From: Bacteroidota bacterium
GTDB taxonomy: Bacteria > Bacteroidota > Bacteroidia > Bacteroidales > F082
Assembly (NCBI GenBank): GCA_023396415.1
Contig: JAEWWJ010000114.1
Coordinates: 4,116 to 68,115, forward strand
Reading direction: 5' to 3'
Length of the DNA: 64,000 nucleotides
Shown here: in pieces, positions 10,453-52,117 of the stretch
How the letters are laid out: every line of letters starts with the position of its first letter
Position numbering within the stretch: position 1 is the first letter of the stretch
Translations under genes and position numbers: made by a program
The notes under the pieces: model-generated
What the model was told of the DNA's origin: nothing
Database searches by the model: none
Seen by the model: only the letters and a program-made list of their open reading frames with translations

Positions 10453-13400
10453 TTATTGAGGAATCACATAAATATTTGCGTTGTTGCGATAGCCTGTTTT
10501 ATCCAAGTACCAATCTCGAAAATCTAAACCTGACGATTGAGCCCAAGCGGCAAATTTTAAGTGAGCCGTAAGTATATCGGCATTTTCAATGGGATAGTTG
10601 AAATTTACAGGAGTTTCAATGCCCCAAGGCAAACCTTTGGGCGACATATAATAACTTCCTGTTGATGGGTTAGAGGCATCGTCAGCAGTGCCAAAAAGTT
10701 CTTCATTAACAAATTCCGTTGGCTTTTGACCTTTAAGATGCACTTCATGTCCACGCTCTTGGTTCACAAAGATAAACGGATTGTAAGGCGGTGTTCCTAT
10801 ATTTGCTTTAGGTGTGCTGAAGTGCGCTGTTACAGTGTTGACGGTAGTTTGCACATATTTCCCGTTAGGAATTGTATTGGCCATTCCGCCTTCCATGATG
10901 GGGTTAATGTTGTCAATTAAAATAATTACCGTTTCGTTGGTATGTCCGGCTTCAAAACCTTTGGCATCATACACAATGGCATTTCCCATAGCGATATAAC
11001 CTGTTACGCTTTCAATCGCTGAGGGTTGGGTGTCAAACACAATTCCAAAACCATTGTCGAGCGAAGCGCCGTCGGCCATAATCTGGTATTTTACAATCAC
11101 GTCAACCACCTGATTTTGAGCATTGGTAACGGTTTGATAATTCAGATTCACCACAAAGTCATTCAAGTCATAATCGCCATAAGCCGGCCAAAGGTCCTCG
11201 AAGGCGATGCTCACAAAATCAACCTGATTGGGGTAATAAGAGTCAAAGCTGCGTGTCGGGTCGTTGGGATAATCATCCAGGTTATCCGGCACTCCGTCGC
11301 CATCAGTATCTAACGAACCCCCTGTTATGATTGAAATTTCGAGTGTTTTGCTGTCGGTTCCGGCGGCGTTGGTTGCTGTAATTTCTACATTGTAAGTACC
11401 ATGAACGGTAGGAATTCCACTCAAGGTATTTCCGCTGATTGTGATGCCGGCAGGCAAATTGGTAGCATCAAAGGTCATAGGTTGAGAGCCATTGGCTGTG
11501 ATGGTATAACTGAATGGGAAGCTTGTTGTGGCATTTGCTGTCAGAACACTGGTGATGGTTGGCGGCTCCAGACCTTCTTCAATCGTTATCACAAGAGTTT
11601 GAACATCAATTCCGTAGCTGTTTGTAACTGTGAGTAAAACTTCCGTTACACCGGGGAAAAGTGGTGTGCCGTTAATGGTACGGTTGGTAGCGTCGAAAGT
11701 AAGTCCCTGTGGCAGATTGCTCACTTGGTAGGCAATGGTTGGCGATCCGGTAGCAGTGAAAGTATAGGTGGAAAACTGATTTCCGGCAGTTCCAGAGGCG
11801 GTGAGCTGGCTTGTGATTGCTGGAGGTGTTCCAACGGTAAGTACCAGTGTTTTATTGGCAGTGCCGCCTGCATTGGTTGCCGATAAGTTGATATTGTAAA
11901 CTCCGGCTGTGGTCGGACTTCCCGAAATCACTTGCGTTTGTGCATTGAAGGACAATCCCGCGGGTAAGTTGCTCGCCGCATAAGTGATTGGACCCGATCC
12001 GCTGGCGGTGAGGATATAGTTGAATGTAGTATTTACTGTAGCCTTAGCCGTAAGAATGCTTGTAATTACAGGTGGATCAACAGGTTGGGTTATAGTAATT
12101 TTTAGGGTTTCTACATCTACACCAAAATTATTGGTTGCGGTTAGCTCCACGTTAAAAGTACCGGCAACCGTTGGAGTTCCGCTGATTACACCGTTAGTGG
12201 CATTAAAAATCAATCCCGAAGGTAGGTTTCCAACAGTGAACGTAACAGGAGAAGTTCCTGTAGCAGTAATCGTATAAGGTGCAATGGCTTCGTTACGCAA
12301 ACCTCCAATTTGCAATGAACTGGTAATTTCAGGAGCTTCAAACACTCCACAATCAGGAACAGGAACTACGAATTTACAATAAGTCATATTGATGTAACTC
12401 GCGTTGTTATTGTAACCGTCATTATCATCCGAACAAAGGTCAAAGTTTGAAAGTGACGCTCCGCCGGTTACTTCGCCATCATCATCGGCTCTGATTTGAG
12501 CATAGCCCGATGCAGGCCCTTCGATGGTTCCATTGATTTTGAACTCATCTACCTTGATAAGGCTACCATGACCCAAAGCGGTCTTGTTGTTGCCATTGCC
12601 CGTAAAATGAGCTACATCATCAATATACATATAACCGTTATTGATCAGGCTGCCCGATTGTTTAAATTCGCCGTTGTCGGTAACAAAAAACTTGCAATTG
12701 TTCGTTAGGCTTCCGTTGGAATTGATATCAAAATCCTCGTTGGTTTTGAACGTACCATTGTTGACAAACTCCCCCATATTCACCAGTTTGAGCGTTGCAG
12801 TGATGGTTCCCCAATTCAAAATTGTCCCGTCCAATTGGCCGGCACCTTTTCCTGAAATATTAACCGTTCCATAATTTTCGATGTCGAACTCGACATGATC
12901 TTTCGGAAGACTTGTAACACCATCGGGCGAAACCAGCAATTTGCTTCCACTTGATATGCCGTTATACTTTTTGATAAAAGCACTCCCACATACTTTTAGA
13001 CTTGCACCATTGCCCATTTTCAGCTTTTTGATGGTAGCGTGGTTGCCCGAGGCAATGCAGCGAGTCTCACCATTTGGGATGTTCAAGTTATCGTTGAAAT
13101 TGTTGGGCAAAACATCATCGGGATTGCAGTCGCAGTAGGGATCAACAACTTGCACATTTTTGGCCGTCATAAAGCTATACTCAAGCCTGTCGCCTTTTAA
13201 TGTAACCGGGATGTAATCATTCATTCCCGATGCAGTTAAGCGCGCTACATACACCTCTTGTAAGTTGGAAGCTATGCGCAGCGGCAAGGTAAATTCGCCT
13301 TGACCGTTTGGCGCACCAGTACTAATCAAACGCCCCCCATTATTGGGATGCGCATCATAAATCCGAATGATTTCGGCGCCGGTGGACTTGTTGTTGGTAA

Positions 13401-13578
13401 GCTGTATGGCGGTTTGAACATTCTTGAAGCTTTCAAATTTAAAGGCCTTGTCAACATTTAATTCTACAAACTTAGAAGGAGCCTCAGGATTTGGCTTGTT
13501 GGTGTCTTTTTGGCAAGATTGCAGTGCAAGTGTAAAACTCATCAACAGCAATAGACCTAATGTTAGTTTTTTCATCAT
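10453..13578 (-). CDS. Large surface lipoprotein: N-terminal lipoprotein module, beta-rich region, five putative-Ig (He_PIG-like) repeats, a calcium-binding TSP3-like motif and a C-terminal LruC-type domain
   Basis: 1041 aa with lipobox LALQSC. There are five ~88 aa repeats of the type ITS.L.A..G..F.Y...A.GS.P..Y..SNLP.GL.F....ISG.P...G.Y. These are followed by DTDGDGVPDNLDDYPNDP. The C-terminal domain contains AFEDLWPAYGDYDLNDFVV...NPFIFVNQERGHEVHLKGQ...LPWGIETP...HLKFAAWAQSSG, as in LruC-domain proteins. Confidence 0.85.
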   Translation of the reverse strand: MMKKLTLGLLLLMSFTLALQSCQKDTNKPNPEAPSKFVELNVDKAFKFESFKNVQTAIQLTNNKSTGAEIIRIYDAHPNNGGRLISTGAPNGQGEFTLPLRIASNLQEVYVARLTASGMNDYIPVTLKGDRLEYSFMTAKNVQVVDPYCDCNPDDVLPNNFNDNLNIPNGETRCIASGNHATIKKLKMGNGASLKVCGSAFIKKYNGISSGSKLLVSPDGVTSLPKDHVEFDIENYGTVNISGKGAGQLDGTILNWGTITATLKLVNMGEFVNNGTFKTNEDFDINSNGSLTNNCKFFVTDNGEFKQSGSLINNGYMYIDDVAHFTGNGNNKTALGHGSLIKVDEFKINGTIEGPASGYAQIRADDDGEVTGGASLSNFDLCSDDNDGYNNNASYINMTYCKFVVPVPDCGVFEAPEITSSLQIGGLRNEAIAPYTITATGTSPVTFTVGNLPSGLIFNATNGVISGTPTVAGTFNVELTATNNFGVDVETLKITITQPVDPPVITSILTAKATVNTTFNYILTASGSGPITYAASNLPAGLSFNAQTQVISGSPTTAGVYNINLSATNAGGTANKTLVLTVGTPPAITSQLTASGTAGNQFSTYTFTATGSPTIAYQVSNLPQGLTFDATNRTINGTPLFPGVTEVLLTVTNSYGIDVQTLVITIEEGLEPPTITSVLTANATTSFPFSYTITANGSQPMTFDATNLPAGITISGNTLSGIPTVHGTYNVEITATNAAGTDSKTLEISIITGGSLDTDGDGVPDNLDDYPNDPTRSFDSYYPNQVDFVSIAFEDLWPAYGDYDLNDFVVNLNYQTVTNAQNQVVDVIVKYQIMADGASLDNGFGIVFDTQPSAIESVTGYIAMGNAIVYDAKGFEAGHTNETVIILIDNINPIMEGGMANTIPNGKYVQTTVNTVTAHFSTPKANIGTPPYNPFIFVNQERGHEVHLKGQKPTEFVNEELFGTADDASNPSTGSYYMSPKGLPWGIETPVNFNYPIENADILTAHLKFAAWAQSSGLDFRDWYLDKTGYRNNANIYVIPQ

Positions 13579-13659
13579 AATAATTTTTTATGGATGCTCA
13601 AGATTTGTTCCAAATTAGTTATACATCAAATTTTCAAAGCTTTATATATTTTCAATTCG

Positions 13660-13701
13660 GGATATTTTTCCTTTATCGGGAATTTAGTCCAATATTAGGA
13701 C
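13660..13701 (-). promoter_or_regulatory. Composite inverted-repeat element (double copy) upstream of the LruC lipoprotein gene
   Basis: The minus strand reads TCC-TAATATT-GGACT-AA-ATTCC-CGATAAA-GGAAA-AA-TATCC. The half-site architecture matches the elements at 28387, 31538, 32533 and 51437. The central GGACT is 112 nt upstream of start 13578. Confidence 0.5.
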
Positions 13702-27766: not shown

Positions 27767-28084
27767 TTAAAGCAAGGCTTCCAATTTCTTTACAATCGCA
27801 GCTTTTGGAACCGCTCCAACTTGTTTATCCACTACCTGACCTCCTTTAAAAAAGAGAATAGTGGGAATATTGCGGATGCCATAGGCATTGGCTGAGGCCG
27901 GGTTGGTATCCACATCGAGTTTCACAACCTTAGCTTTGCCTTCGTATTCTTTACCAATTTCCTCGACAATTGGACCTACCATGCGACAAGGACCGCACCA
28001 AACTGCCCAAAAATCAACAATAACAGGAACATCGGAATCTAAAACATCTTCTTTGAAAGAAGCATCAGTAACATTAAGCGCCAT
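27767..28084 (-). CDS. trxA: Thioredoxin
   Basis: 105 aa with the active site WAVWCGPC and typical thioredoxin length and flanks (VIVDFWA...[11 protein letters not shown]). Confidence 0.95.
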
Positions 28085-28386: not shown

Positions 28387-28403
28387 ATTCCAATATTCGG
28401 AAT
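28387..28403 (+). promoter_or_regulatory. Inverted repeat ATTCC-N7-GGAAT upstream of lipoprotein paralog 1
   Basis: ATTCC AATATTC GGAAT. The GGAAT is 121 nt upstream of ATG 28520 (133 nt from ATG 28532). It belongs to the same half-site family as 31538, 32533, 13660 and 51437. Confidence 0.45.
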
Positions 28404-28519
28404 CGGTACGTATGAATACTTATACATATCAACCGATAAAAAAAATATATGTCTGAAAATAAGTTATATACTGAGGTCAAAAATATCTTGGTCTGATTAT
28501 TGCTTACCTCTAACCCCAA

Positions 28520-28894
28520 ATGAAAGAAAATATGAGAAAACTTACTTTTTTAACTGTTATAACGCTTCTTTTTGCTTTTTCGTCATGTAAAAAAGACACT
28601 CCCGAACCTGCTCAAACACTTCCTTCTAATATGAATGAGATGGTTGTCCCGCAAGGCTTTGATTGGAAAACATCCAAAAGCTTTGAGATTGTCATCACTG
28701 CTTCGGAAGGCGGCATTGTGGAAGCCGGCTCCACCGATGGAAGGAGCTACCAACGTGCTTATTTGAAAGCCAATCAACCTTACACCATGAAACTGAGTGT
28801 TCCTACGTATGAAAAAAAGTTGGTTCTCAGTTTTGCAGGCCAGCAAACCATTTTAGAGCTTACAACACAACAACTCAACCATCGTTTTCAATAA
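28520..28894 (+). CDS. Small lipoprotein, LruC-locus-associated paralog 1
   Basis: Lipobox LFAFSSC. It aligns along its full length with the 31673 and 32675 products (NMNEMVVPQGFDWKTSKSF..., YQRAYL, YTMKLSVPTYEKK). The start may be ATG 28532 (MRKLTF). Confidence 0.8.
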   Translation: MKENMRKLTFLTVITLLFAFSSCKKDTPEPAQTLPSNMNEMVVPQGFDWKTSKSFEIVITASEGGIVEAGSTDGRSYQRAYLKANQPYTMKLSVPTYEKKLVLSFAGQQTILELTTQQLNHRFQ

Positions 28895-28921
28895 CATTTT
28901 CTTAACCAGCAATAAATAACT

Positions 28922-31369
28922 ATGAAATATACAACATTCACTTACGCACTTAGTCTATTCATCGCATTGACATTTGGCACTCAAACCCATGCGCAAGAAT
29001 ACCTTCGGGTTTATACCAGCGCCCCCGGAACGATGTTTTCCAACGTCACGGGCAACACACTGATCACTGAAAATTTCTCCGGCTTCACCATTCCCAACAC
29101 CAGTTGGGCACCGCTACCCGGCGGCTACACCTCGGCGCTGGGCACCTACTACCAAACAGGTGGACAATCGTATGTTAAAGCCGACGATCAATATGGCGCA
29201 GGCCAAGGCAAATACATGTCAATTAAAGTAGGTGGAACAGTTAAGCTTAACTTTACCAATCCCAAACAGTATTTTGGTTTTGCTTGGCCTGCTGGCGATG
29301 GTAAAAACACCATTAAAATTATCCGTAGCGGACAAGTAATTGGAACTTTCACCACCAATAACGTTATTGCACAGTTGCCCAACAATGCCAGCAATTCAGT
29401 TACTGCTATCAACGGGTCGGTCTATACCACAAACCAATTTTATGGCAAACCCGGCACCGGCCAAAACGCCAACGAGCCTTATGCCTATTTGCATTTTCTC
29501 TCCTCACCCGGATTGATGTTCGATGCCGTTGAACTCTCGATGGGTGCCGGTGGCGAATTTGAAAACGACAACCACACTGTACTTATTGATGGCGCCCCCA
29601 TTTTGCAAGGCGACTGGGTAGAATTGATTTCTATTGTAACCCCAACGGCTGCCAACGACAGTAAAGTTGGCCTTTTTGGCGCAGCGGTAACACTCGATGT
29701 TTTAAGCAACGATACGCCCGGCGATGCCGCTTTGATTCCCGGAAGTGTTCAAATTGACGGAACAACAACCGCAGCTTCACCGCTTAACGTTGCAGGCGAA
29801 GGCGTTTGGAGCGTCAATTCCATTACCGGAGCCATCACCTTTACACCCGAAGTAGGTTTCATAGGCAATCCTACACCAATAAAATATTTCGTAAAAGACG
29901 CGAACAACTTCGCCTCTAACTTGGCAACCGTTACGGTAACCTATCCCATTCCGCCAACAGCTGTTGATAACACTGCAAGCACAGATATGAACGTTCCGGT
30001 TGACATCAATGTTTTGGCCAACGATATGGAAGGCAGCAGCGCCCTAGATCCAACAACGGTTACTTTCGTTGCCGGAACAACGCCTAATCCAACAACTGTA
30101 GGCACTTTTACCGCTGATCCACTGACCGGATTGGTAACCTTTACGCCAGCATTTGGTTTTACCGGAATTGCCACCGTTGACTATCGCATTTGCGACGTGG
30201 CAGGCAATTGCGCAATCGCCACCATCACCGTAACCGTAAATACCGTCAGTGGCCCTACCGCCAACGATGACAGCGCCATAACCCTCGTCAACACGCCTGT
30301 TGATATTGATGTGTTGGACAACGACACTCCAGGAGCTGTTGCTCTAGACCCCACTTCAATCACTTTTATCCCTGCCACAGCTCCCAATCCAACAACGGAA
30401 GGAATATTTACTGTTGATCCCTTATCGGGAGTGGTTACCTTCACTCCTGTAAATGGATTTTTGGGAGTGGTTTCCATTGATTACAGCGTTTGCGACCTGA
30501 ATGGATTGTGCCATATAGCCACCATTACTGTGAATGTAATCGTTGGTTTAACCAACCTCTATCCTGCCTTAGGCCCCGGCACACTTGCCTTCGAAGACCT
30601 CTGGCCAGGCAAAGGTGATTATGATTTTAACGATATGGTGATTGATTATCAGTTTAAAATTATTTCCAACCTATCGAACAACGTAGATGAAATTACCGGC
30701 ACATTTGTTCTCAAAGCTTTTGGCGCCTCCTTTGAAAACGGCTTTGGCTTCCAATTGGCCGATGGTATTGACCCCAACGATGTAACCGTTACAGGAACCG
30801 GTCTCACCGAAAACATCATTACCCTCAACCCAAGCGGCACTGAGGCCGGACAAACGAAAGCAACCATTATTGTTTTTGACAATGCTTTCGCCCATATGCC
30901 CCATCCCGGAATTGGAATAGGTGTAAACACAACCCCAGGCGCACCTTATGTAGCTCCGGTAACATTCACCGTGAAAATGGTTTTTAAACCCAATACCTAT
31001 AGCTACAACGATTTGGCTATTGGCAGCTTTAATCCTTTCCTTATTGTGAACAAAGTGCGCGGCCACGAAGTGCACCTTCCAAATGATGAACCGACCGACC
31101 TTGCCGATCTATCTTTGTTCGGACAATGGGAAGACAACAGCGATCCCGCAAACGGAAAATATTACATCACTGTGTTGAACCACCCTTGGGCGATCAACAT
31201 TTATGAAAAATTTGATTATCCCATCGAAAAACAAGATATCCTCGGCGTTCACCTGAAATTTGCTGAATGGGCTACCAGCAGCGGGGTGCTTTTCCCTGAT
31301 TGGTACAAAAACATTTCAGGATACCGCAACGAAGCACTGATATACGAAATTCCATCTACTACGCCATAA
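28922..31369 (+). CDS. Secreted surface protein with three cadherin/CshA-like repeats and a C-terminal LruC-type domain
   Basis: 815 aa with signal peptide MKYTTFTYALSLFIALTFGTQTHAQ. There are three ~100 aa repeats (..VD..A.T..N.PV.I.VL.ND....ALDP..V.F......P.T.G.FT.DP..G.VTFTP..GF.G...). The LruC-type region follows: LAFEDLWPGKGDYDFNDMVIDYQFK...NPFLIVNKVRGHEVHLPN...HPWAINIYEKFDYPIEKQDI...HLKFAEWATSSG. No T9SS CTD is present. Confidence 0.85.
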   Translation: MKYTTFTYALSLFIALTFGTQTHAQEYLRVYTSAPGTMFSNVTGNTLITENFSGFTIPNTSWAPLPGGYTSALGTYYQTGGQSYVKADDQYGAGQGKYMSIKVGGTVKLNFTNPKQYFGFAWPAGDGKNTIKIIRSGQVIGTFTTNNVIAQLPNNASNSVTAINGSVYTTNQFYGKPGTGQNANEPYAYLHFLSSPGLMFDAVELSMGAGGEFENDNHTVLIDGAPILQGDWVELISIVTPTAANDSKVGLFGAAVTLDVLSNDTPGDAALIPGSVQIDGTTTAASPLNVAGEGVWSVNSITGAITFTPEVGFIGNPTPIKYFVKDANNFASNLATVTVTYPIPPTAVDNTASTDMNVPVDINVLANDMEGSSALDPTTVTFVAGTTPNPTTVGTFTADPLTGLVTFTPAFGFTGIATVDYRICDVAGNCAIATITVTVNTVSGPTANDDSAITLVNTPVDIDVLDNDTPGAVALDPTSITFIPATAPNPTTEGIFTVDPLSGVVTFTPVNGFLGVVSIDYSVCDLNGLCHIATITVNVIVGLTNLYPALGPGTLAFEDLWPGKGDYDFNDMVIDYQFKIISNLSNNVDEITGTFVLKAFGASFENGFGFQLADGIDPNDVTVTGTGLTENIITLNPSGTEAGQTKATIIVFDNAFAHMPHPGIGIGVNTTPGAPYVAPVTFTVKMVFKPNTYSYNDLAIGSFNPFLIVNKVRGHEVHLPNDEPTDLADLSLFGQWEDNSDPANGKYYITVLNHPWAINIYEKFDYPIEKQDILGVHLKFAEWATSSGVLFPDWYKNISGYRNEALIYEIPSTTP

Positions 31370-31402
31370 GGCACAGGGTGGACCAGCCAAACGACTAAGC
31401 TA

Positions 31403-31437
31403 AATTCCCCGGTTTCTTTGCAAGAGATCGGGGGATT
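31403..31437 (+). terminator. Intrinsic terminator after the 815 aa LruC gene
   Basis: AATTCCCCG ... CGGGGGATT forms a 9-bp stem (one G-U pair) followed by TTTTCATTTT. Confidence 0.6.
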
Positions 31438-31537
31438 TTCATTTTACCCATGCAATTATTGCCTACTTTTGATGCAACTACACAAACAAAAACGGTAGCT
31501 CATACAAACAGAATACAAATCTACTTTTTATAACTTG

Positions 31538-31559
31538 TCCATTTTTTGGAATTTATTCC
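31538..31559 (+). promoter_or_regulatory. Composite inverted repeat TCC-N7-GGAAT-TT-ATTCC upstream of lipoprotein paralog 2
   Basis: TCC ATTTTTT GGAAT TT ATTCC. The GGAAT is 125 nt upstream of ATG 31673. TTTTGGAATTTATTC is identical to 51445..51459. Confidence 0.5.
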
Positions 31560-31627
31560 TAATTATGCATTTTCAAATAAGATTTATTTTTTTTATTTGC
31601 CTTAATATCAATGTTTTAAATAAAATT

Positions 31628-31635
31628 TAGGTTTG
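31628..31635 (+). promoter_or_regulatory. Bacteroidota -7 promoter box (TAGGTTTG)
   Basis: Exact TAnnTTTG, 38 nt upstream of ATG 31673. It overlaps a weaker -24/-12-like string, TTGGCATCATTTTGG. Confidence 0.45.
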
Positions 31636-31672
31636 GCATCATTTTGGAATAAGTAGATAAAACGCAAACATT

Positions 31673-32035
31673 ATGAAAAAGATCGCATTGTTACTGACCA
31701 TAGGATTTGCCCTTACCTTTACCTCATGTAAAAAAGACAAGGTAGAAAATCCTGTAAGCAAACCCAACACCATGGAGGAATTGCAAGTGCCTGCCAGTTT
31801 CAACTGGAAAACCACAAAAGACATCAGCCTTACCCTCACCGGAAATGGCAATGGTTTGGTGGAGGTGGCCAACGCAACAGGCGTGGCTTACCAAAAAGCA
31901 TATCTGAGCAGCGGCGTGGCCTACACCATGAAGCTAACCGTCCCCAGCTACGAAAAGACTGTTCAACTTAAATTTCTCGGCCAAACCGCAAGTCTGGAAT
32001 TGACAGCCAATGTTCTGCAATACCAATTCAACTGA
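31673..32035 (+). CDS. Small lipoprotein, LruC-locus-associated paralog 2 (orphan, no large partner gene downstream)
   Basis: 120 aa with lipobox LTFTSC. It is roughly 55-60 percent identical by eye to the 32675 product (TMEELQVPASFNWKTT, YQKAYL, YTMKLTVPSYEK). Confidence 0.85.
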   Translation: MKKIALLLTIGFALTFTSCKKDKVENPVSKPNTMEELQVPASFNWKTTKDISLTLTGNGNGLVEVANATGVAYQKAYLSSGVAYTMKLTVPSYEKTVQLKFLGQTASLELTANVLQYQFN

Positions 32036-32148
32036 TCCACAACAAAGAGCAAAAGCTGTGCAGGTGTTCAATTGAGCTTTTCAGCTTCAACTGTGAAGGA
32101 AAAACGTTGACAAGGCGCATACTCAACCTCAGTAGAAAAAAATAGATT

Positions 32149-32182
32149 ACACCCGAAGCATTCATTCAAATGCTTCGGGTGT
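32149..32182 (+). terminator. Intrinsic terminator after orphan lipoprotein gene
   Basis: ACACCCGAAGCAT / tcattcaa / ATGCTTCGGGTGT forms a perfect 13-bp stem followed by TTTT. Confidence 0.8.
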
Positions 32183-32532
32183 TTTGCTTTATACCGCAAC
32201 ACAAATTCAGAAAAATTTTCGAGTGGTTGTCAGCCATGCATCTCAGATGTATAGAATCTTTATCCCTACCCTACCCAAAGCACGGAAAACATTTAACTTT
32301 GGACTTAGCAGCCATATCTTTCGAAGGTAGGCAATGAATTTGTTGTCGAAAATGTTTGCTAAAAAAATATTGACCTTGTCATAAGTGATTTACTTATAGC
32401 TACATTTGTGTTCAGTTTATCCAACATCACCAAAAAAACTCCTTTAGAACCAAAAAACTACCCTTCCCTACGGAATAAAATGTTGGCGCATAAAAAAGTT
32501 GAGCTAAAAAAGATATATATCACCAAATTTCG

Positions 32533-32554
32533 TCTATTTTTTGGAAATATTTCC
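32533..32554 (+). promoter_or_regulatory. Composite inverted repeat TCT-N7-GGAAA-TA-TTTCC upstream of lipoprotein paralog 3
   Basis: TCT ATTTTTT GGAAA TA TTTCC. The GGAAA is 132 nt upstream of ATG 32675. Its flanks align with the 31538 element (ATTTTTTGGAA). Confidence 0.5.
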
Positions 32555-32674
32555 GATTTTAGATTTGATATTTTATAGGATTATATTTTATAAGCATTTA
32601 TATATCAACTATATACGAATCATTATTTTTTTGGCACGATATTAGAACTCAACGAATTGAAAATATAAAAACCC

Positions 32675-33034
32675 ATGAAAAAAACCACATTATTCATCGC
32701 CTTAGGTTTCATTCTGGTTTTGAGTTCCTGTAAAAAGGAAACTCCTCAACAACCGGATAACAAACCAACCACCATGGAGGAGCTCAAGGTTCCGGCGAGC
32801 TTCAATTGGAAAACCACTTCGGATTACAACCTCACCCTCACCGCCAATGCCAACGGCATTGTAGAGGTGAACAACACCAATGGTGCCACCTATCAAAAAG
32901 CCTATCTCACCGCCGGGATACCTTATACGATGAAGGTTGTTGTACCATCATACGAAAAGAGTGTTAAATTAAAATTTAGCGGTTCGGAAACGGTGCTTAA
33001 CCTAACCACTTCCAACTTAAGCCATCAATTTTAA
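32675..33034 (+). CDS. Small lipoprotein, LruC-locus-associated paralog 3
   Basis: 119 aa with lipobox LVLSSC. It is a paralog of the 28520 and 31673 products and ends 32 nt before the 1916 aa gene. Confidence 0.85.
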   Translation: MKKTTLFIALGFILVLSSCKKETPQQPDNKPTTMEELKVPASFNWKTTSDYNLTLTANANGIVEVNNTNGATYQKAYLTAGIPYTMKVVVPSYEKSVKLKFSGSETVLNLTTSNLSHQF

Positions 33035-33066
33035 AAAGATTTATCATCCAAGAAAACCGCAATAGA

Positions 33067-36000
33067 ATGAAAACAAAAACGTCTATTCCAAAAAAAGAGC
33101 AGAAAATGATCAGTAGATCATTGCTAACCTCACTCATGATGGTCATCGTTTTAATCCTTTCGGGATTGAACGTTTCGGCACAACAGTCTTTTATTTTGAA
33201 CCTTCAGGGTCAAACCTTGAGTTTCAAAGAAGTCAACCGCACTATTCTTGTCAATACCGGTAATGCCGGAAAAAACCAAGGTTCTATTCATAAATACGCT
33301 AATGTCATCACCAAAGATGGGATAACAGTTTATGCAAAAATGACGATTAAGGAAGTTCAAAGTGCGTTTATCACCCTATTTGATGATGATGCCATCACCG
33401 GCGAAATCAATCGTTTTCAGCCAAGGATAGGCACAACAAGTAATAGCAGTGGAGGCTTTATAGTTTATGAACTTGAGTTTTTCAATACGGCCAATAACGC
33501 TTCCGTTTTTGTTTACAACTATAACCTTACAGGAATTGATATTGATGGCAATAACTCTGCAAACAGAGAATATGTTGAAGTAGGCGGATATACAAGTTAT
33601 ACTTTAAACAACCCTACAGGTTTGACGGTTACAACCAATAATGCTACCGGAAGAACACGCTTCACAGGTATAAGTTATAGTTTAAATGGAGTTACTTTTG
33701 ACAACAGTGCTGCATTTATTGCTAACTTCTTAAATGCCAACAATAAAATCTCTTTTGCCTTAGGTCAAACGAAAGCTAACGATGAAAGGTTTTATTCTGT
33801 TCAGTTAGGTGTTGCCGGCGGAGTTTTTTCAGATCCTGTGATTGTTAACAATCCACTTCCTATTGCAGTTGATGATGTTGGAACACCAGTTAACAGCAAT
33901 ACCGGAGGAACTGCTGTGAACAATGTTCTTACAAATGACTTATACAATGGCTCAGCTGTTGTGCCCTCACAAGTAATGATTTCATTGGTTTCTCCTGCAT
34001 CCAATGCCGGTATCGTTCTGAATACAAGCACCGGAAAAGTTACCGTTGCACCCGGTACTCCCGCCGGAGATTACGAGCTGATTTATAAAATATGTATGGT
34101 TGCAGCACCCTCCGATTGTGATATCGCCACTGTATTCGTTAAAGTTTTAGCAGCTGATTTAAGCGTAGTAAAAACAGCAAGTAGTTTAGCTCCTGTTGTG
34201 GGTTCAGATATCACCTTTACGATTACTGCCACTAACAATGGCCCCAGTTTGGCAACCGATGTTACGGTTAACGATGTGCTTCCAAACGGTTATACATTAG
34301 TGAGCGCAACTCCTTCAACCGGGACATGGTCAGCACCTAACTGGACGATAGGTGATATGGAAGACGATGCAAGTGCTACTTTAACCGTTGTGGCTACAGT
34401 GAAAGCTAGTGGTTCTTATGCAAATACAGCAAGTATTTCAGGAACTTCCTATGACCCAACTTCAAATAACAATTCAAGCACGGTAACGCCAGTCCCTGTT
34501 GCATCAGCAGATTTAGGCATCGCTAAAACTGCCAGCTCGTTAACACCGGCAGTTGGTTCAAACATCACTTTCACACTAACAGCTACCAATAATGGCCCAA
34601 GTGCTGCAACCGGGGTCAAAGTTGTGGATGCGTTGCCCAATGGATATACTTTTGTAAGCGCCACTACTTCAACCGGATCCTATACCGCCCCCAACTGGAA
34701 CATTGGCAACCTTGCATTGAGTGGAACTGCCACCTTAAATATTGTAGCTACTGTAAACGCAACAGGAACTTATCTTAATACAGCTACAATTAGCGGAGCA
34801 CAAACCGATCCTGTTTCGGGAAACAATACAAGCAGTATAACCCCCGTGCCTACCGCTGCTACCGATCTCGCAATTACGAAAACAGTCAACAATGCTGCTC
34901 CCGCAGTGGGAACAAATGTTACTTTTACACTATCCGTAGTGAACAACGGCCCTAGCGCCGCCACCGGAGTAAAAGTTGTTGATGCACTGCCCGCAGGATA
35001 TACTTATGTTAGTAACACTCCTTCAACCGGAACATGGTCGGGCTCAACTTGGACCATTGGTGCTTTAGCCAACGGCGCCACAGCAACCCTGGCACTCGTT
35101 GCAACTGTAAATGCTACAGGTCCTTATGCCAACTCTGCAACTGTTAGCGGTAGCCAAACCGATCCTACTCCGGGAAACAACACCGGTACTGCAACAACAG
35201 TTCCAGTAGGCGCTGCCGATCTTTCGATTACAAAAACTGTTAGTAACGCTTCTCCCAATGCAGGAACAAACGTTACCTTCACCCTAACAGCAAAAAATAA
35301 CGGCCCCAGCGCTGCCACCGGAGTAACTGTAAACGATGTTTTACCCTCAGGATATACCTTTGTAAGCGCAACGCCGTCAGCAGGCACATGGACTGCTCCC
35401 AACTGGGTTATCGGCAATTTGGCCAATGGAGCAACTGTTACCTTGAGTATTGTTGCTACTGTTAAAGCCACCGGAAATTATGACAATACCGCCACCATCA
35501 CCGGCAACCAAACCGATCCGGTTTCTACCAACAACAGCAGCACTGCCACCGTAACCCCTTCGGCTGTAGCTGATTTGGAAGTTACAAAAACAGTTAACAA
35601 CACCACTCCTGATGTTGGCTCTACAGTAACCTTTACCATTACTGCCAAAAACATTGGCCCCAGTACTGCCACCGGAGTGATTGTAAATGATGTGTTACCG
35701 GCAGGATTTTCCCTCACCGGTGCAACTGCAAGTGTTGGAACATGGACTGCTCCCAACTGGACTATCGGTAGCCTTGCCCTTAATGCTACTGCTACTTTGT
35801 CTATCACGGCCACAGTAAACGCCGCCGGCCCTTATGTGAACACAGCAACCATCACTGGTCAGCAACCCGATCCTAACACAGCAAACAACTCATCTCAAGC
35901 AACTTGTGTTCCTGTTGCTAAAGCTGATCTTTCGATTACAAAAACTGTCAACAGCAGTGCGCCTGTTGTCGGCACCAATGTTACCTTCACCTTAACGGCC

Positions 36001-38817
36001 AAAAACAACGGCCCCAGCGCTGCCACCGGAGTGAGTGTAAACGATGTTTTACCCACAGGATATACCTTTGTAAGTGCCACGCCATCAGCAGGCACTTGGA
36101 CTGCACCCAACTGGACCATCGGTAATTTGGCCAATGGAGCCACCGTAACTTTAAACATTGTTGCCACCGTTTTGGCTACCGGAAGCTATGCCAACACCGC
36201 TACAATCAGCGGAACCACATCAGATCCAAATCCTGCCAACAACAGCAGTACCGTTACGCCCGGGCCGGCAGCATCGGCTGATGTAGCCATTGTGAAATCG
36301 GTGAACAACAGCAATCCATCGGTTGGAACAAACGTTATTTTTACCCTCACGGCCACCAACAACGGCCCGAGCAATGCTGCCAATGTGGTTGTAAACGACG
36401 TTTTGCCCTCAGGATACACTTTTGTAAATGCAAATACCACCTCCGGTAGCTGGGCAGCACCCAATTGGACAATTGGTACTTTAAACAATGGTGACACAAA
36501 AACCCTTACTATAGAAGCTAAGGTGAAGGCAAGCGGTTCATATACCAACACCGCTACCATCACAACCACAACCAACGATCCCAATACAGGAAACAACACA
36601 AGCAGTGTAACGCCGGGGCCATCAGCCGCTGCCGACCTCAGCGTGACTAAAACTGTGAGTAACGAAACCCCTACGGTAGGCACCAACGTAACCTTTACGA
36701 TTACTGCCACCAATAACGGCCCGAGCGCTGCCACCAATGTGAAGGTAAATGATATTTTGCCTGCAGGATACACTTTTGTAAGTTTTAGCCCTGTAACCTC
36801 CAACTGGACGGCCCCCAACTGGACCATCGGCAATTTGGCCAATGGCGCAAGCGCTACTTTGAACATTGTAGCCAAAGTTAACGCCGCCGGACCTTATGTT
36901 AATACGGCAACCATTTCAGGTACTGAAACCGATCCCAATATGGGAAATAACAGCAATTCAGCCACTTGCGTCCCGGTATCTTCGGCTGACCTCTCCATCG
37001 TTAAAAGTGTTGACAACGCCACTCCTACCGTAGGAAACAACGTTTCATTTACCCTCACAGCATCTAATATCGGTCCCAGCAACGCTACCAACGTGAAGGT
37101 TGTTGACCTATTACCGGCCGGATATACCTTTGTAAGTGCTACGCAGTCATCAGGTACGTGGGCTTCACCCAACTGGACGATCGGCAATCTGAATTCGGGA
37201 AGCACGGCCACCTTAATTATGGTTGCCAAAGTGAACGTAACAGGGCCTTATGCCAACACAGCCACCATCAGTGGTGATCAAACTGACCCCAACACTGACA
37301 ACAATTCAAGCACCATCACCCCCGGACCGGCAGCTTCTGCTGACCTCGGAGTACTTAAAACTGTTGACGTTACCACTCCAAAAGTAAACGATACCGTTAC
37401 CTTCACCATTACTGCCTCCAACAATGGCCTCAGCAATGCCACCCTCGTAAAGGTAACAGACGCTTTACCCGCAGGCTACACCTTTGTAAGTGCAACGCCT
37501 TCAGTAGGAGCGTGGGCTGCACCCGTCTGGACCATTGGCAATTTGGCCAAAGATGCCACTGCCACATTGAAAATTAAAGCCAAGGTAAAAGCCAACGGCC
37601 CTTATGCCAACACAGCTACCATTGAAGGCAATGAAACCGATCCTGTAGATGAGAACAATACTTCAACCGTTACCATCACTCCGGTAGCTTTGGTAGGCCC
37701 GGATGCCATCAATGACAATGCTTCCACCCTTGCCAACAGCCCTGTTGAAATCATTGTGCTATCAAACGATCTAATCGGCGAAGCAGCCTTGAATCCAACC
37801 ACTGTTATGCTCATCGCGACAACCGCACCCAATCCATCAACCGTTGGTGTGTTTACTGTTGATCCGGTTACCGGAGTGGTTACTTTTACGCCCGCACTCG
37901 GCTTCACTGGTGTTGCCTCTATTGACTACCAGGTGTGTGATATGAACAGCCTTTGCGATATCGCTAAAATCACAGTAACAGTTATTCAAGGTGCTGATAT
38001 TCTGTATCCTGCTACCGGTTTTGGAACTTTAGCTTTTGAAGATTTGTGGCCCGGTAAAGGCGACTACGATTTCAATGACCTTGTTTTGGATTACCAATTC
38101 AAAGTGGTGATCAATGCTTACAACAAAGTTGAAAAAGTTACAGGAACCTTCATCATCAAAGCTTTTGGAGCCACTTTTGAAAACGGATTCGGATTCCAAT
38201 TGAGCAACGCCATCAACAGCAGCGATCTTACAGTAACCGGTTACGAACTTAGCGAGAACTTTATTAGCCTCGAAGGAAACGGAACGGAATCAGGTCAATC
38301 GAAACCTACCATTATTGTGTATGACAACGCCTACAAACAAATGGAACATCCGGGCATTGGAATTGGTGTGAACACCACTCCCGGCGCACCTTATGTTACT
38401 CCTGATACATTGGTGATTAACATCGTGTTAAAACCCAACACTTATTCGATTTCCGATCTCGACATCAGCAACTTCAATCCTTTCTTGATCGTGAATAAAG
38501 TGCGGAGCCATGAAGTACATTTGCCTTATTATCCACCCACTGACCTTGTCAATCCTGCCTTGTTCGGTCAATATGAGGACAATAGCAATCCTTCAAGCAA
38601 CAGATATTATGTTACAGACACCAACTTGCCCTGGGCCATTAACATCTACGAAAAGTTCGATTATCCTCATGAAAAACAAGAGATCATTTGGGCTCACCTT
38701 AAGTTTGCCGAATGGGCAACAAGCGGCGGCGTTCAGTTCCCCGACTGGTATAAAAACCTTACGGGATATCGCAACCAAAGCTTGATCTATCAAGTTCCTG
38801 CACAACCCAACCCATAA
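33067..38817 (+). CDS. Giant secreted surface protein: N-terminal domain, Ig/cadherin-like domain, ten DUF11-type repeats, cadherin/CshA-like repeat, C-terminal LruC-type domain
   Basis: 1916 aa with signal/TM segment LLTSLMMVIVLILSGLNVSAQ. There are ten 118-aa units beginning ADL(S/G)(I/V)(T/V)K(T/S) and containing TF(T)(L/I)TA.NNGPS.A..V.V.D.LP.GYTFVSA. The C-terminal region is LAFEDLWPGKGDYDFNDLVLDYQFK...NPFLIVNKVRSHEVHLP...LPWAINIYEKFDYPHEKQEI...HLKFAEWATSGG. The start could instead be ATG 33106. Confidence 0.9.
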   Translation: MKTKTSIPKKEQKMISRSLLTSLMMVIVLILSGLNVSAQQSFILNLQGQTLSFKEVNRTILVNTGNAGKNQGSIHKYANVITKDGITVYAKMTIKEVQSAFITLFDDDAITGEINRFQPRIGTTSNSSGGFIVYELEFFNTANNASVFVYNYNLTGIDIDGNNSANREYVEVGGYTSYTLNNPTGLTVTTNNATGRTRFTGISYSLNGVTFDNSAAFIANFLNANNKISFALGQTKANDERFYSVQLGVAGGVFSDPVIVNNPLPIAVDDVGTPVNSNTGGTAVNNVLTNDLYNGSAVVPSQVMISLVSPASNAGIVLNTSTGKVTVAPGTPAGDYELIYKICMVAAPSDCDIATVFVKVLAADLSVVKTASSLAPVVGSDITFTITATNNGPSLATDVTVNDVLPNGYTLVSATPSTGTWSAPNWTIGDMEDDASATLTVVATVKASGSYANTASISGTSYDPTSNNNSSTVTPVPVASADLGIAKTASSLTPAVGSNITFTLTATNNGPSAATGVKVVDALPNGYTFVSATTSTGSYTAPNWNIGNLALSGTATLNIVATVNATGTYLNTATISGAQTDPVSGNNTSSITPVPTAATDLAITKTVNNAAPAVGTNVTFTLSVVNNGPSAATGVKVVDALPAGYTYVSNTPSTGTWSGSTWTIGALANGATATLALVATVNATGPYANSATVSGSQTDPTPGNNTGTATTVPVGAADLSITKTVSNASPNAGTNVTFTLTAKNNGPSAATGVTVNDVLPSGYTFVSATPSAGTWTAPNWVIGNLANGATVTLSIVATVKATGNYDNTATITGNQTDPVSTNNSSTATVTPSAVADLEVTKTVNNTTPDVGSTVTFTITAKNIGPSTATGVIVNDVLPAGFSLTGATASVGTWTAPNWTIGSLALNATATLSITATVNAAGPYVNTATITGQQPDPNTANNSSQATCVPVAKADLSITKTVNSSAPVVGTNVTFTLTAKNNGPSAATGVSVNDVLPTGYTFVSATPSAGTWTAPNWTIGNLANGATVTLNIVATVLATGSYANTATISGTTSDPNPANNSSTVTPGPAASADVAIVKSVNNSNPSVGTNVIFTLTATNNGPSNAANVVVNDVLPSGYTFVNANTTSGSWAAPNWTIGTLNNGDTKTLTIEAKVKASGSYTNTATITTTTNDPNTGNNTSSVTPGPSAAADLSVTKTVSNETPTVGTNVTFTITATNNGPSAATNVKVNDILPAGYTFVSFSPVTSNWTAPNWTIGNLANGASATLNIVAKVNAAGPYVNTATISGTETDPNMGNNSNSATCVPVSSADLSIVKSVDNATPTVGNNVSFTLTASNIGPSNATNVKVVDLLPAGYTFVSATQSSGTWASPNWTIGNLNSGSTATLIMVAKVNVTGPYANTATISGDQTDPNTDNNSSTITPGPAASADLGVLKTVDVTTPKVNDTVTFTITASNNGLSNATLVKVTDALPAGYTFVSATPSVGAWAAPVWTIGNLAKDATATLKIKAKVKANGPYANTATIEGNETDPVDENNTSTVTITPVALVGPDAINDNASTLANSPVEIIVLSNDLIGEAALNPTTVMLIATTAPNPSTVGVFTVDPVTGVVTFTPALGFTGVASIDYQVCDMNSLCDIAKITVTVIQGADILYPATGFGTLAFEDLWPGKGDYDFNDLVLDYQFKVVINAYNKVEKVTGTFIIKAFGATFENGFGFQLSNAINSSDLTVTGYELSENFISLEGNGTESGQSKPTIIVYDNAYKQMEHPGIGIGVNTTPGAPYVTPDTLVINIVLKPNTYSISDLDISNFNPFLIVNKVRSHEVHLPYYPPTDLVNPALFGQYEDNSNPSSNRYYVTDTNLPWAINIYEKFDYPHEKQEIIWAHLKFAEWATSGGVQFPDWYKNLTGYRNQSLIYQVPAQPNP
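34153..37692 (+). repeat. Ten in-register 354-bp coding tandem repeats (DUF11-type units)
   Basis: Unit starts fall at 34153, 34507, 34861, 35215, 35569, 35923, 36277, 36631, 36985 and 37339, exactly 354 nt apart with no indels. Units 4 and 6 are the most similar pair. Confidence 0.9.
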
Positions 38818-51436: not shown

Positions 51437-51460
51437 ATTCCTACTTTTGGAATTTATTCT
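51437..51460 (+). promoter_or_regulatory. Composite inverted repeat ATTCC-N7-GGAAT-TT-ATTCT upstream of the response-regulator gene
   Basis: ATTCC TACTTTT GGAAT TT ATTCT. The GGAAT is 115 nt upstream of ATG 51564. The 12-mer TACTTTTGGAAT also occurs 50 nt upstream, at 51392..51403. Confidence 0.5.
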
Positions 51461-51563
51461 TAATTTGAAACATAATACTCAAAACAGATGAATTTCAAAT
51501 AATTATAAACCAGTGACTTATAAGAGTGGTTCGTTTGTTGCTTTACTGAAAACAAAGAAAAAA

Positions 51564-51980: not shown

Positions 51981-52080
51981 AACATCTCCTCCTGTCCATT
52001 TTTCTATTTAGTTCATTTTTAGGGTTGAAACCTGTTTTTTCATTGTCAAAAAATGAAGGAAGCAATTCATCACAAAAATG

Positions 52081-52088
52081 TATATTTG
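52081..52088 (+). promoter_or_regulatory. Bacteroidota -7 promoter box (TATATTTG)
   Basis: Exact TAnnTTTG, 30 nt upstream of ATG 52118. Confidence 0.45.
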
Positions 52089-52117
52089 CCAGCTGTACCC
52101 TAAAAATCATTTACTGC

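What the first reader, a model, noticed from the sequence alone, without database searches (positions are those of the whole stretch)
28387..32647. Shared composite inverted repeat (A)TTCC-N7-GGAAT-N2-ATTCC about 121-133 nt upstream of all three small-lipoprotein genes
The three elements are: 28387 ATTCC-AATATTC-GGAAT; 31538 TCC-ATTTTTT-GGAAT-TT-ATTCC; 32533 TCT-ATTTTTT-GGAAA-TA-TTTCC. The central half-site lies 121 (or 133), 125 and 132 nt before the respective start codons. About 80-95 nt downstream of each box is a promoter-like string with invariant TGG-N9-T-N-G: TTGGTCTGATTATTGCT at 28488, TTGGCATCATTTTGGAA at 31633, TTGGCACGATATTAGAA at 32631. These strings can be read two ways. They could be RpoN -24/-12 elements, since the GG to G spacing is correct, TGGCACG is perfect at 32632, and TTGC is exact only at 28500. 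They could instead be ordinary Bacteroidota -7 boxes, exact only at 31628 (TAGGTTTG). A palindromic site at this distance from the promoter is the classic layout of an activator or enhancer-binding-protein site. It implies coordinated control of the LruC loci.
Basis: partly seen in the sequence, partly recalled or inferred. Interest (0 to 1): 0.6.

Follow-up and report, generated by a model that had tools for sequence, protein, structure and literature searches.

The report
Sigma-54 promoters with phased activator sites
The repeated TTCC/GGAA boxes and the TGG...TTG strings in front of the small-lipoprotein/LruC genes are most likely binding sites for an unidentified activator and sigma-54 promoters, a classical switch that here co-regulates a set of surface-protein genes in an uncultured Bacteroidales bacterium.

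Summary

- **Promoter.** About 50 homologous lipoprotein genes from other Bacteroidales/Lentimicrobiaceae MAGs were compared. Nearly all carry TTTGGCAY-N4-TTNGA 37-50 nt before the ATG. This has the GG-N10-G spacing of a sigma-54 -24/-12 promoter.
- **Upstream site.** Nearly all also carry one or two TCC-N7-GGA palindromes. Their centres lie about 94, 84, 73 or 63 nt upstream of the -24 GG, that is, one helical turn apart.
It is a full distal site plus the left half of a second site 19 bp downstream.
- **Sigma-A alternative.** This reading fails. TAnnTTTG is present in only 6 of 45 regions.
- **Two more units in the window.** One is on the minus strand before a third LruC gene (13578..10453). 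The other precedes a response-regulator/hybrid-kinase/FG-GAP operon (51564..56477), and orthologues keep it.
- **Open points.** No enhancer-binding protein or rpoN gene was found nearby.

Verdict: a well-supported new member of a known kind, a sigma-54/EBP regulon with a UAS motif for which I found no published description. Interest is moderate.

The parts
28387..28403 (+). Unit 1 upstream activating site (UAS): ATTCC-AATATTC-GGAAT, centre 28395, 95 nt upstream of the -24 GG.
   Evidence: Sequence. In five syntenic orthologues the half-sites are invariant while the 7-nt spacer varies (A4).
28489..28504 (+). Unit 1 sigma-54-type promoter TGGTCTGATTATTGCT. GG at 28490-91, GC at 28502-03, predicted start of transcription about 28515. 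The -24 half is weak and the -12 half (TTGCT) is perfect.
   Evidence: TTGG, CTG and TTG are invariant in the syntenic orthologues. The site scores below 8 bits with the family PWM but sits in the canonical position: d=95, and 43 nt to the ATG at 28532.
28532..31369 (+). Transcription unit 1: small lipoprotein (28532-28894) plus an LruC/DUF4842 protein (28922-31369). A terminator-like hairpin follows at 31402-31438.
31538..31569 (+). Unit 2 tandem UAS. The distal site is TCCATTTTTTGGA (centre 31544, d=91). The proximal site is TCCTAATTATGCA (centre 31563, d=72, one mismatch).
   Evidence: Conserved in orthologues L007, L047 and L048 (A5).
31606..31618 (+). IHF-like consensus TATCAATGTTTTA (WATCAANNNNTTR) between the UAS and the promoter of unit 2. 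It is a possible DNA-bending site.
   Evidence: The consensus occurs in 11 of 45 orthologous UAS-promoter intervals against 0.9 in shuffles, with a maximum of 5 in 200 shuffles. This is an inference only.
31634..31649 (+). Unit 2 sigma-54-type promoter TGGCATCATTTTGGAA. GG at 31635-36, -12 GA at 31647-48, predicted start of transcription about 31660.
   Evidence: Scores 19.9 bits with a PWM built only from non-window orthologues, the second best site in the window.
31673..32035 (+). Transcription unit 2: a solitary small lipoprotein gene. A strong bidirectional terminator-like hairpin follows at 32149-32182.
32533..32564 (+). Unit 3 UAS. The distal site is TCTATTTTTTGGA (centre 32539, d=94, one mismatch). 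It is followed by a conserved proximal TTTCC half-site: the site TCCGATTTTAGAT is degenerate on its right arm.
   Evidence: Orthologue L007_1251 has GTCCGATTTTTGGAATTAATTCC (A6).
32632..32647 (+). Unit 3 sigma-54-type promoter TGGCACGATATTAGAA. GG at 32633-34, -12 GA at 32645-46, predicted start of transcription about 32658.
   Evidence: Scores 20.8 bits, the best site in the window. It is identical in orthologue L007.
32675..38817 (+). Transcription unit 3: small lipoprotein (32675-33034) plus a 1916-aa DUF11-repeat/DUF4842 protein (33067-38817). A terminator-like hairpin follows at about 38833-38865.
13668..13701 (-). Unit 4 tandem UAS on the minus strand: GTCCTAATATTGGAC (centre 13694, d=83) and TTCCCGATAAAGGAA (centre 13675, d=64). 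Both cores are perfect.
13597..13612 (-). Unit 4 sigma-54-type promoter TGGAACAAATCTTGAG, upstream of the third LruC/DUF4842 lipoprotein gene (13578..10453). The N-terminus of that protein is homologous to the small lipoproteins.
   Evidence: 13.0 bits. Geometry. DUF4842 assignment. N-terminal homology with E=7e-11.
51437..51470 (+). Unit 5 tandem UAS: ATTCCTACTTTTGGAAT (centre 51445, d=83) followed by ATTCTTAATTTGAAA (centre 51464, d=64, degenerate).
   Evidence: Orthologous regions L182 and L183 keep TCC-N7-GGA at d=84 and d=83.
51527..51542 (+). Unit 5 sigma-54-type promoter TGGTTCGTTTGTTGCT, with a predicted start of transcription about 51553. It lies upstream of three genes: a REC-only response regulator (51564-51980), a TPR-PAS hybrid histidine kinase (52025-54892) and an FG-GAP protein (54915-56477).

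Best explanation
Each of the three small-lipoprotein genes is transcribed from a sigma-54 (RpoN) -24/-12 promoter. The family consensus is TTTGGCAY-N4-TTNGA, and gene 1 has the variant TTGGTCTG-N4-TTGCT. Two further units in the window have the same layout.

Such a promoter forms a closed complex that stays silent until an ATP-dependent enhancer-binding protein (EBP) remodels it. I infer that dimers of one, still unidentified, EBP bind the TCC-N7-GGA palindromes. Their half-sites are one helical turn apart. There are one or two sites per promoter, 19-21 bp apart, centred about 94/73 or 84/63 nt upstream of the -24 GG.

All four positions lie on the same face of the helix. The bound activator could therefore reach the promoter by looping the AT-rich intervening DNA, possibly helped by an IHF/HU-like bend.

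The result would be coordinated, signal-dependent expression of lipoprotein-LruC(DUF4842) surface-protein operons. A response-regulator/hybrid-kinase operon carries the same control region and may feed back on the circuit.

Shown here: the motifs, their conservation, their geometry and their gene associations.

Inferred: sigma-54 usage, EBP binding, looping, and the direction of regulation (activation).
For: - **Promoter.** 48 of 53 non-redundant homologous upstream regions have a strong -24/-12 match 37-50 nt before the ATG. In the 42-site PWM, GG is 40-42 of 42, C 40, A 37, Y 41, the -12 T 39 and the -12 G 40, with 16.4 bits in total.
- **Specificity.** In 377 kb of window plus loci, both strands, 53 of 81 PWM hits of 11 bits or more lie directly upstream of family genes. 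Of those 53, 52 have a TCC-N7-GGA site with at most one mismatch 50-115 nt upstream.
- **UAS found without prior assumption.** TCC-N7-GGA is the top dyad in non-window orthologues, z=31.
- **Geometry.** The class means of the distance from site centre to GG are 62.7, 72.8, 83.8 and 94.2 nt, with steps of 10.1, 11.0 and 10.5. The Rayleigh statistic is R=0.63 at a 10.5-bp period.
- **Footprint.** In syntenic orthologues of gene 1 the half-sites are invariant and the spacer varies.
- **Within the window.** All 5 intergenic perfect TCC-N7-GGA sites, in 4 intergenic regions, have TGG-N8-T-N-G at a phased distance on the gene-facing strand.
- **Independent genes with the same module.**
  - The LruC gene at 13578.
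  - A DUF4842 gene in L016.
  - The REC/HK operon and its orthologues.
  - A STAS gene in three Saccharicrinis genomes and a secreted protein in Flavitalea.
- **Sigma-A box.** Absent: 6 of 45 regions.
- **Other explanations.** No Rfam family matches the region.
- **Literature.** Sigma-54 promoters mapped by TSS sequencing in Flavobacterium psychrophilum drive exported proteins, lipoproteins and the remFG-sprCDBF adhesin operon, and that genome has three EBPs (PMC9723704). Sigma-54 regulons have also been predicted in Bacteroidia (PMC12316311).
Against: - There is no experimental 5' end.
- No EBP (GAFTGA motif) or RpoN box was found in the 64-kb window or within +/-4 kb of 40 loci. The gene listing for about 10 kb beyond the window's right end shows no Sigma54_activat or AAA+ family.
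- The presence of rpoN in this genome was not checked.
- The -12 dinucleotide is mostly GA (29 of 42) rather than the canonical GC (8 of 42).
- Units 1 and 5 have weak -24 halves (TGGTCT, TGGTTC). Unit 1 is not listed among PWM hits of 8 bits or more, and unit 5 is absent from the same list.
- Predicted leaders are short, about 8-24 nt.
- The homologous regions are related by descent, so the p-values on spacing overstate independence.
Confidence: 0.85

Rival explanations
1. The TGG strings are ordinary Bacteroidota sigma-A promoters (-7 box TAnnTTTG ending at the first G). The palindrome is then an operator for a classical activator or repressor.
For: TAGGTTTG at 31628 is an exact -7 box. T-rich sequence precedes the GG in most homologues. 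The divergent trxA gene in the same intergenic region uses a conserved TATCTTTG box, so sigma-A promoters of this type exist here.
Against: TAnnTTTG ends on the GG in only 6 of 45 regions. Any TAnnTTTG between 60 nt upstream of the TGG and the ATG occurs in 9 of 45. The best-conserved positions (second G, C, A, Y and the T/G 10 nt downstream) lie outside a -7 box and match sigma-54 spacing exactly.
Confidence: 0.03
2. The promoters are sigma-54 dependent, but TCC-N7-GGA is bound by a protein other than the activating EBP. This could be a repressor or anti-activator, or an architectural protein. The EBP would then bind elsewhere or act from solution.
For: No EBP has been linked to the motif. 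No published UAS with this sequence was found. Some EBPs lack DNA-binding domains (established knowledge of the family).
Against: The sites are the only conserved element in the -60 to -125 region. They are dyads with half-sites 11 bp apart, often in tandem, and helically phased with respect to the promoter. This is the signature of looping activators.
Confidence: 0.09
3. The similarity only reflects recent duplication of gene plus upstream region (paralogy) and has no regulatory meaning.
For: Units 2 and 3 share 18 of 22 positions in the box. The three proteins are paralogues with 43-45% identity.
Against: Outside the motifs the upstream regions do not align. The same motifs and spacing occur before about 50 homologues of 31-50% protein identity and before unrelated genes: the REC/HK operon, a STAS gene and a Flavitalea secreted protein.
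Confidence: 0.02

Closest known systems
Classical sigma-54/NtrC-family enhancer systems, for example glnAp2-NtrC, nifH-NifA (UAS TGT-N10-ACA) and pspA-PspF with IHF (from established knowledge)
   Same: A GG-N10-G(C) -24/-12 promoter. Dyad-symmetric upstream sites, often two. Sites roughly 70-120 bp upstream of the start of transcription. Face-of-helix dependence. AT-rich or IHF-like DNA between the sites and the promoter.
   Different: The UAS sequence is TTCC-N7-GGAA, for which I found no published description. The -12 element is mostly TTNGA rather than TTGCW. The host is an uncultured Bacteroidales/Lentimicrobiaceae-like bacterium. The EBP and its signal are unknown. The targets are lipoprotein/DUF4842 surface proteins.
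Flavobacterium psychrophilum sigma-54 promoter class SM4 (PMC9723704)
   Same: Same phylum. The -24/-12 promoters were mapped by 5'-end RNA-seq and validated by mutagenesis on remFG-sprCDBF. Their targets include exported proteins, lipoproteins and a surface adhesin operon. The genome encodes several EBPs.
   Different: The text I searched in that paper mentions no enhancer/UAS motif. The gene families differ: there is no DUF4842/small-lipoprotein module. The evidence here is purely comparative.
Bacteroidota sigma-A promoters (-33 TTTG / -7 TAnnTTTG)
   Same: T-rich sequence ending in TTTG overlaps the -24 element in some units, exactly so at 31628.
   Different: The box is not conserved (6 of 45). 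The conserved positions extend 14 nt further downstream, in sigma-54 register.
Leptospira LruC lipoprotein (DUF4842/PF16130)
   Same: The large downstream proteins carry the same C-terminal DUF4842 domain.
   Different: This concerns only the cargo domain. Nothing is known that links LruC proteins to sigma-54 control.

Membership tests
Sigma-54 (RpoN)-dependent promoter | Conserved GG (-24) and GC (-12) separated by exactly 10 nt, within TGGCAC-N5-TTGC | tested here: met
   GG is present in 40-42 of 42, CAY in 37-41 of 42, and the -12 T and G in 39-40 of 42, at fixed spacing. There is a deviation: the base after the -12 G is A in 29 and C in 8 of 42. Window units 1 and 5 have TTGCT.
Sigma-54 (RpoN)-dependent promoter | Transcription starts about 12 nt downstream of the -12 element | not testable with these tools
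Only the geometry is known: 37-50 nt from TGG to ATG implies leaders of about 11-24 nt.
Sigma-54 (RpoN)-dependent promoter | The genome encodes RpoN | not tested
   No RpoN box was found in the window or in loci L001-L040. RpoN is reported in Bacteroidota (PMC12316311, PMC9723704).
Sigma-54 (RpoN)-dependent promoter | No competing primary-sigma promoter explains the conservation | tested here: met
   TAnnTTTG overlaps the GG in 6 of 45 regions. E. coli-type -35/-10 matches are at shuffle level: 20 against 20.6.
Bacterial enhancer-binding-protein upstream activating sequence | Dyad-symmetric site or sites about 70-150 bp upstream of the promoter, conserved in orthologues | tested here: met
   TCC-N7-GGA is the top dyad, 20 of 42 against 0.5. 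Site centres lie 61-97 nt upstream of the GG. Half-sites are invariant with a variable spacer in syntenic orthologues.
Bacterial enhancer-binding-protein upstream activating sequence | Helical phasing with respect to the promoter | tested here: met
   The four position classes are 10.1-11.0 bp apart, with R=0.63 at a 10.5-bp period. Caveat: the sequences are related by descent.
Bacterial enhancer-binding-protein upstream activating sequence | A cognate AAA+ (GAFTGA) activator with a DNA-binding domain can be assigned | tested here: not met
   No GAFTGA or ESELFGH motif was found in the window or in 40 loci. No Sigma54_activat or AAA+ family is listed for the genes in the 10 kb beyond the window. 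The regulator remains unidentified, so membership rests on anatomy.
Bacteroidota sigma-A promoter | Conserved -7 box TAnnTTTG, with -33 TTTG, upstream of the start of transcription | tested here: not met
   6 of 45 regions. It is exact only at 31628 and in the close orthologues of that unit.

The most novel reading that the evidence does not exclude
TTCC-N7-GGAA could be the enhancer of one EBP orthologue group that is widespread in Bacteroidota, from Lentimicrobiaceae-like Bacteroidales to Saccharicrinis and Chitinophagaceae. Its regulon would be a cell-surface programme made of three parts: lipoprotein-LruC/DUF4842 modules, STAS partner-switching proteins, and a TPR-PAS hybrid-kinase/REC operon that closes a feedback loop. 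The promoters may also trade -24 strength against -12 strength: TGGCAY with TTNGA, against TGGTYY with TTGCT.
Probability: 0.3. Interest if true: 0.6.

Novelty: new member of a known kind. Interest (0 to 1): 0.45.

Why it matters
DUF4842/LruC proteins are large, abundant surface proteins of unknown role in environmental Bacteroidota, and nothing is published on how they are controlled.

A shared, sharply defined sigma-54 promoter and enhancer gives three things:
- A usable handle, as two PWMs plus a spacing rule, to delimit the whole regulon in any genome of the clade.
- A way to find the activator and its signal. The co-regulated TPR-PAS kinase operon is a first candidate component.
- Correct start codons and transcription units for these loci.

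It also adds a clear comparative case of sigma-54 controlling the cell exterior in Bacteroidota, with unusually clean helical phasing of the enhancer.

Tried and rejected
- **Collection scans for the UAS+promoter pattern.** I mis-registered the -12 element, writing N5 instead of N4 after TGGCAY. Each scan listed exactly 24 stretches, which may be a cap. Most hits were chance matches in coding DNA of unrelated phyla, and no family locus was recovered. Only the Saccharicrinis loci (L058, L059, L065) and the Flavitalea locus (L054) look genuine. A local check showed that exact patterns specific enough for a collection scan recover only 2-5 of about 55 known units, so the regulon cannot be delimited this way.
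- **Last genome scan, with the hybrid kinase as query.** It returned only generic kinase C-termini and no orthologues. Orthologues were then obtained through a search with the N-terminal TPR part.
- **Search for the regulator by neighbourhood.** No EBP or RpoN motifs were found in the window or in 40 loci. The gene listing for 10 kb beyond the window's right end shows none either. The left-end look-up found no record.
- **Rfam.** Nothing was found in 26000-40000 except sub-threshold terminator look-alikes.
- **E. coli-type promoter scan.** Uninformative: 20 sites against 20.6 in shuffles.
- **Function of the small lipoprotein.** No Pfam family matched. The AlphaFold model has pLDDT 86 and shows a 7-strand beta-sandwich on a flexible tether. 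No PDB match reached E<=0.001.
- **Literature.** Searches for a Bacteroidota EBP site or for DUF4842 regulation found nothing specific.
- **Rejected candidate sites.**
  - The 16-bit promoter-like hit at 24705, inside the 21889-26316 ORF, has no UAS. About 5 hits of 12 bits or more are expected by chance.
  - The TCC-N7-GGA hit at 41186 lies inside coding DNA.

Full report
**Observation**

The three genes are paralogous lipoproteins of about 120 aa, with 43-45% identity and a conserved lipobox (SSCKK/TSCKK). Genes 1 and 3 are followed after 27-32 nt by very large DUF4842 (LruC-domain) proteins. Gene 2 stands alone between two terminator-like hairpins at 31402-31438 and 32149-32182.

Within the window alone the statistics are unimpressive:
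- GGAAW-N2-WTTCC occurs twice against 0.37 expected.
- The promoter-like string is not enriched, at 15 against 11.4.
- The excess of TCY-N7-GGAAW (26 against 9.9) is largely due to repeated coding domains.

**Comparative evidence for the promoter**

A profile search found 125 homologues of the small lipoprotein, all in Bacteroidales/Bacteroidota metagenome bins. I fetched 40 genomic loci and extracted 53 non-redundant upstream regions, refining start codons against the lipobox.

In 48 of 53 regions a strong -24/-12-type match lies 37-50 nt before the ATG. A PWM built from the 42 non-window sites carries 16.4 bits. Its consensus is TTTGGCAY-N4-TTNGA, with these counts out of 42:

| Position | Count |
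|---|---|
| GG | 40-42 |
| C | 40 |
| A | 37 |
| -12 T | 39 |
| -12 G | 40 |

This is the GG-N10-G register of sigma-54 promoters. With this independent PWM the sites at 32632 and 31634 score 20.8 and 19.9 bits, the two best in the window.

The site at 28489 is not among the hits of 8 bits or more because its -24 half is TGGTCT. However, it has a perfect TTGCT and the right position. In five syntenic orthologues (thioredoxin-DUF58 neighbourhood, 74-84% protein identity) TTGG, CTG and TTG are invariant while the flanks drift. The same alignment shows that the ATG at 28520 is not conserved, so gene 1 starts at 28532.

The sigma-A alternative fails. TAnnTTTG ends on the GG in 6 of 45 regions, and the conserved positions extend well beyond a -7 box. 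By contrast, the divergent trxA gene does have a conserved TATCTTTG box (reverse complement at 28114-28121).

**Comparative evidence for the upstream site**

I ran an unbiased scan of all 3-mer/gap/3-mer dyads in the -150 to -20 region of 42 non-window homologues. TCC-N7-GGA ranks first, in 20 of 42 sequences against 0.5 in dinucleotide shuffles (z=31). GGA-N6-TCC is found in 11 of 42.

So the unit is a palindrome with half-sites one helical turn apart.

The centres of perfect sites lie 91-97, 82-85, 71-74 or 61-63 nt upstream of the first G of the GG. The class means are 94.2, 83.8, 72.8 and 62.7, giving steps of 10.5, 11.0 and 10.1 bp. The Rayleigh statistic is R=0.63 at a 10.5-bp period. 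All sites therefore face the promoter from the same side of the helix.

In the syntenic orthologues of gene 1, ATTCC and GGAAT are invariant while the 7-nt spacer changes: AATATTC, ACGTTTA, AAGTTTA, AAGAGCA, AAGAGTA.

Across 377 kb of window plus loci, both strands, 53 of 81 promoter hits of 11 bits or more lie directly before family genes. Of these, 52 have a UAS with at most one mismatch in the expected interval.

An IHF-like consensus (WATCAANNNNTTR) is over-represented between UAS and promoter, in 11 of 45 regions against 0.9 in shuffles. It is exact at 31606-31618. This is a suggestion only.

**Extension within the window**

All five intergenic perfect TCC-N7-GGA sites in the window have TGG-N8-T-N-G at a phased distance on the gene-facing strand.

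Unit 4 is on the minus strand:
- GTCCTAATATTGGAC and TTCCCGATAAAGGAA (13701-13668, d=83 and 64).
- TGGAACAAATCTTGAG (13612-13597).
- It precedes a third DUF4842 lipoprotein gene (13578..10453). The first 60 residues of that protein are homologous to the small lipoproteins, E=7e-11.

Unit 5 is on the plus strand:
- ATTCCTACTTTTGGAAT-TT-ATTCTTAATTTGAAA (51437-51470, d=83 and 64).
- TGGTTCGTTTGTTGCT (51527-51542).
- It precedes a REC-only response regulator (ATG at 51564), a TPR-PAS hybrid histidine kinase and an FG-GAP protein.
- Two syntenic orthologues, with 46-57% identity in the kinase N-terminus, keep TCC-N7-GGA and TGG...TTG at d=84 and 83.

**Gene associations**

- 37 of 44 assessable small-lipoprotein genes are immediately followed by a DUF4842 gene.
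- DUF4842 genes without such a partner carry their own unit. These are window 13578 and L016.
- My two collection scans were flawed (see below). Even so, the same tandem-UAS/promoter architecture (d=82/63) turned up before a STAS-domain gene in three Saccharicrinis genomes and before a secreted protein in a Flavitalea MAG. This hints that the motif pair is older and wider than the LruC loci.

**Mechanism**

The anatomy is that of a classical sigma-54 enhancer system. It has a -24/-12 promoter that needs an AAA+ activator. It has one or two dyad sites for activator dimers at about -85 to -120 relative to the predicted start. The sites are helically phased, and the intervening DNA is AT-rich and possibly bent, which allows looping.

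I put 0.85 on this. The motifs, the conservation, the geometry and the gene associations are shown. Sigma-54 use, EBP binding and activation are inferred.

Points against, or open:
- No EBP or RpoN gene was found in the window or the 40 loci, and none is listed in the 10 kb beyond the window's right end. The look-up at the left end found no record.
- The -12 dinucleotide is mostly GA, not GC.
- Two window units have weak -24 halves paired with perfect TTGCT. This may be a compensation, but it rests on few independent cases.

**Comparison with what is known**

Sigma-54 promoters have been mapped in Flavobacterium psychrophilum. There they drive exported proteins, lipoproteins and the remFG-sprCDBF adhesin operon, and three EBPs are encoded (PMC9723704). 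A 2025 survey predicts sigma-54 regulons in Bacteroidia (PMC12316311).

I found no description of a TTCC-N7-GGAA enhancer or of any regulation of DUF4842/LruC genes. The finding is therefore a new member of a known kind. The mechanism is textbook. The motif, the regulon and the clade are new.

**What did not work**

- Two collection scans used a mis-registered -12 element, and each listed exactly 24 stretches.
- The last genome scan, with the kinase as query, gave only generic kinase domains.
- Rfam found nothing in the region, and the E. coli-type promoter scan was at shuffle level.
- The small lipoprotein has no Pfam family. Its model is a generic 7-strand beta-sandwich on a tether, with no specific structural relative.

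Noticed in passing
window 10453-13578 (-): The third LruC/DUF4842 protein is itself a lipoprotein. Its first 60 or so residues are homologous to the small-lipoprotein family (E=7e-11). It looks like a fused or ancestral form of the two-gene module.
   Followed up: partly
window 51564-56477 (+): A REC-only response regulator, a TPR-PAS-HisKA-HATPase-REC hybrid kinase and an FG-GAP repeat protein form an apparent operon behind a UAS/sigma-54 unit of the same type. Synteny with the DPP-IV gene and the control region are both conserved in L182 and L183. This is a candidate signalling arm of the regulon.
   Followed up: partly
window 28114-28121 (reverse complement), upstream of trxA (28084..27767, -): A conserved TATCTTTG (-7 box of Bacteroidota sigma-A promoters) sits in a block of about 80 nt that is highly conserved in syntenic orthologues. 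It serves as an internal example of what a sigma-A promoter looks like in this genome.
   Followed up: partly
window 28369-28380: TGTCAAAATGAG lies immediately upstream of the unit 1 palindrome. It is almost invariant in the five syntenic orthologues, although it does not fit the TCC-N7-GGA pattern. Its role is unexplained.
   Followed up: no
L058 649-751, L059 6621-6723 (-), L065 4064-4166; L054 4646-4748 (-): Saccharicrinis (three genomes) and Flavitalea carry tandem TTCC-N7-GGAA sites plus TTGGCAC-N4-TTTGG at d=82/63. In Saccharicrinis the downstream gene encodes a 113-124-aa STAS-domain protein, followed by UspA in L065. In Flavitalea it encodes a 412-aa secreted protein.
   Followed up: partly
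window 28532-28894, 31673-32035, 32675-33034: The small lipoproteins have no Pfam family. The AlphaFold model (pLDDT 86) shows a 7-strand beta-sandwich of about 75 residues, held on a low-confidence linker of about 25 residues after the lipidated Cys. The CKKD/CRKD sequence after the Cys resembles the Bacteroidota lipoprotein surface-export signal. I saw that paper only as a title in a search result (PMC5080379) and have not tested the resemblance.
   Followed up: partly
window 24705-24720 (+): TTTTGGCACTGACCTTGAAAAT scores 16 bits with the promoter PWM, but it lies inside the 1475-aa ORF 21889-26316 and has no upstream palindrome. It is probably a chance match.
   Followed up: partly
window 32149-32182: A perfect 14-15-bp GC-rich hairpin has T-runs on both strands, so it looks like a bidirectional terminator. 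It lies between lipoprotein genes 2 and 3 and shows that they are separate transcription units.
   Followed up: no
window 51390-51405: An extra half-site-like string, GATACTTTTGGAATC, lies about 47 nt upstream of the distal palindrome of unit 5. Its conservation was not examined.
   Followed up: no
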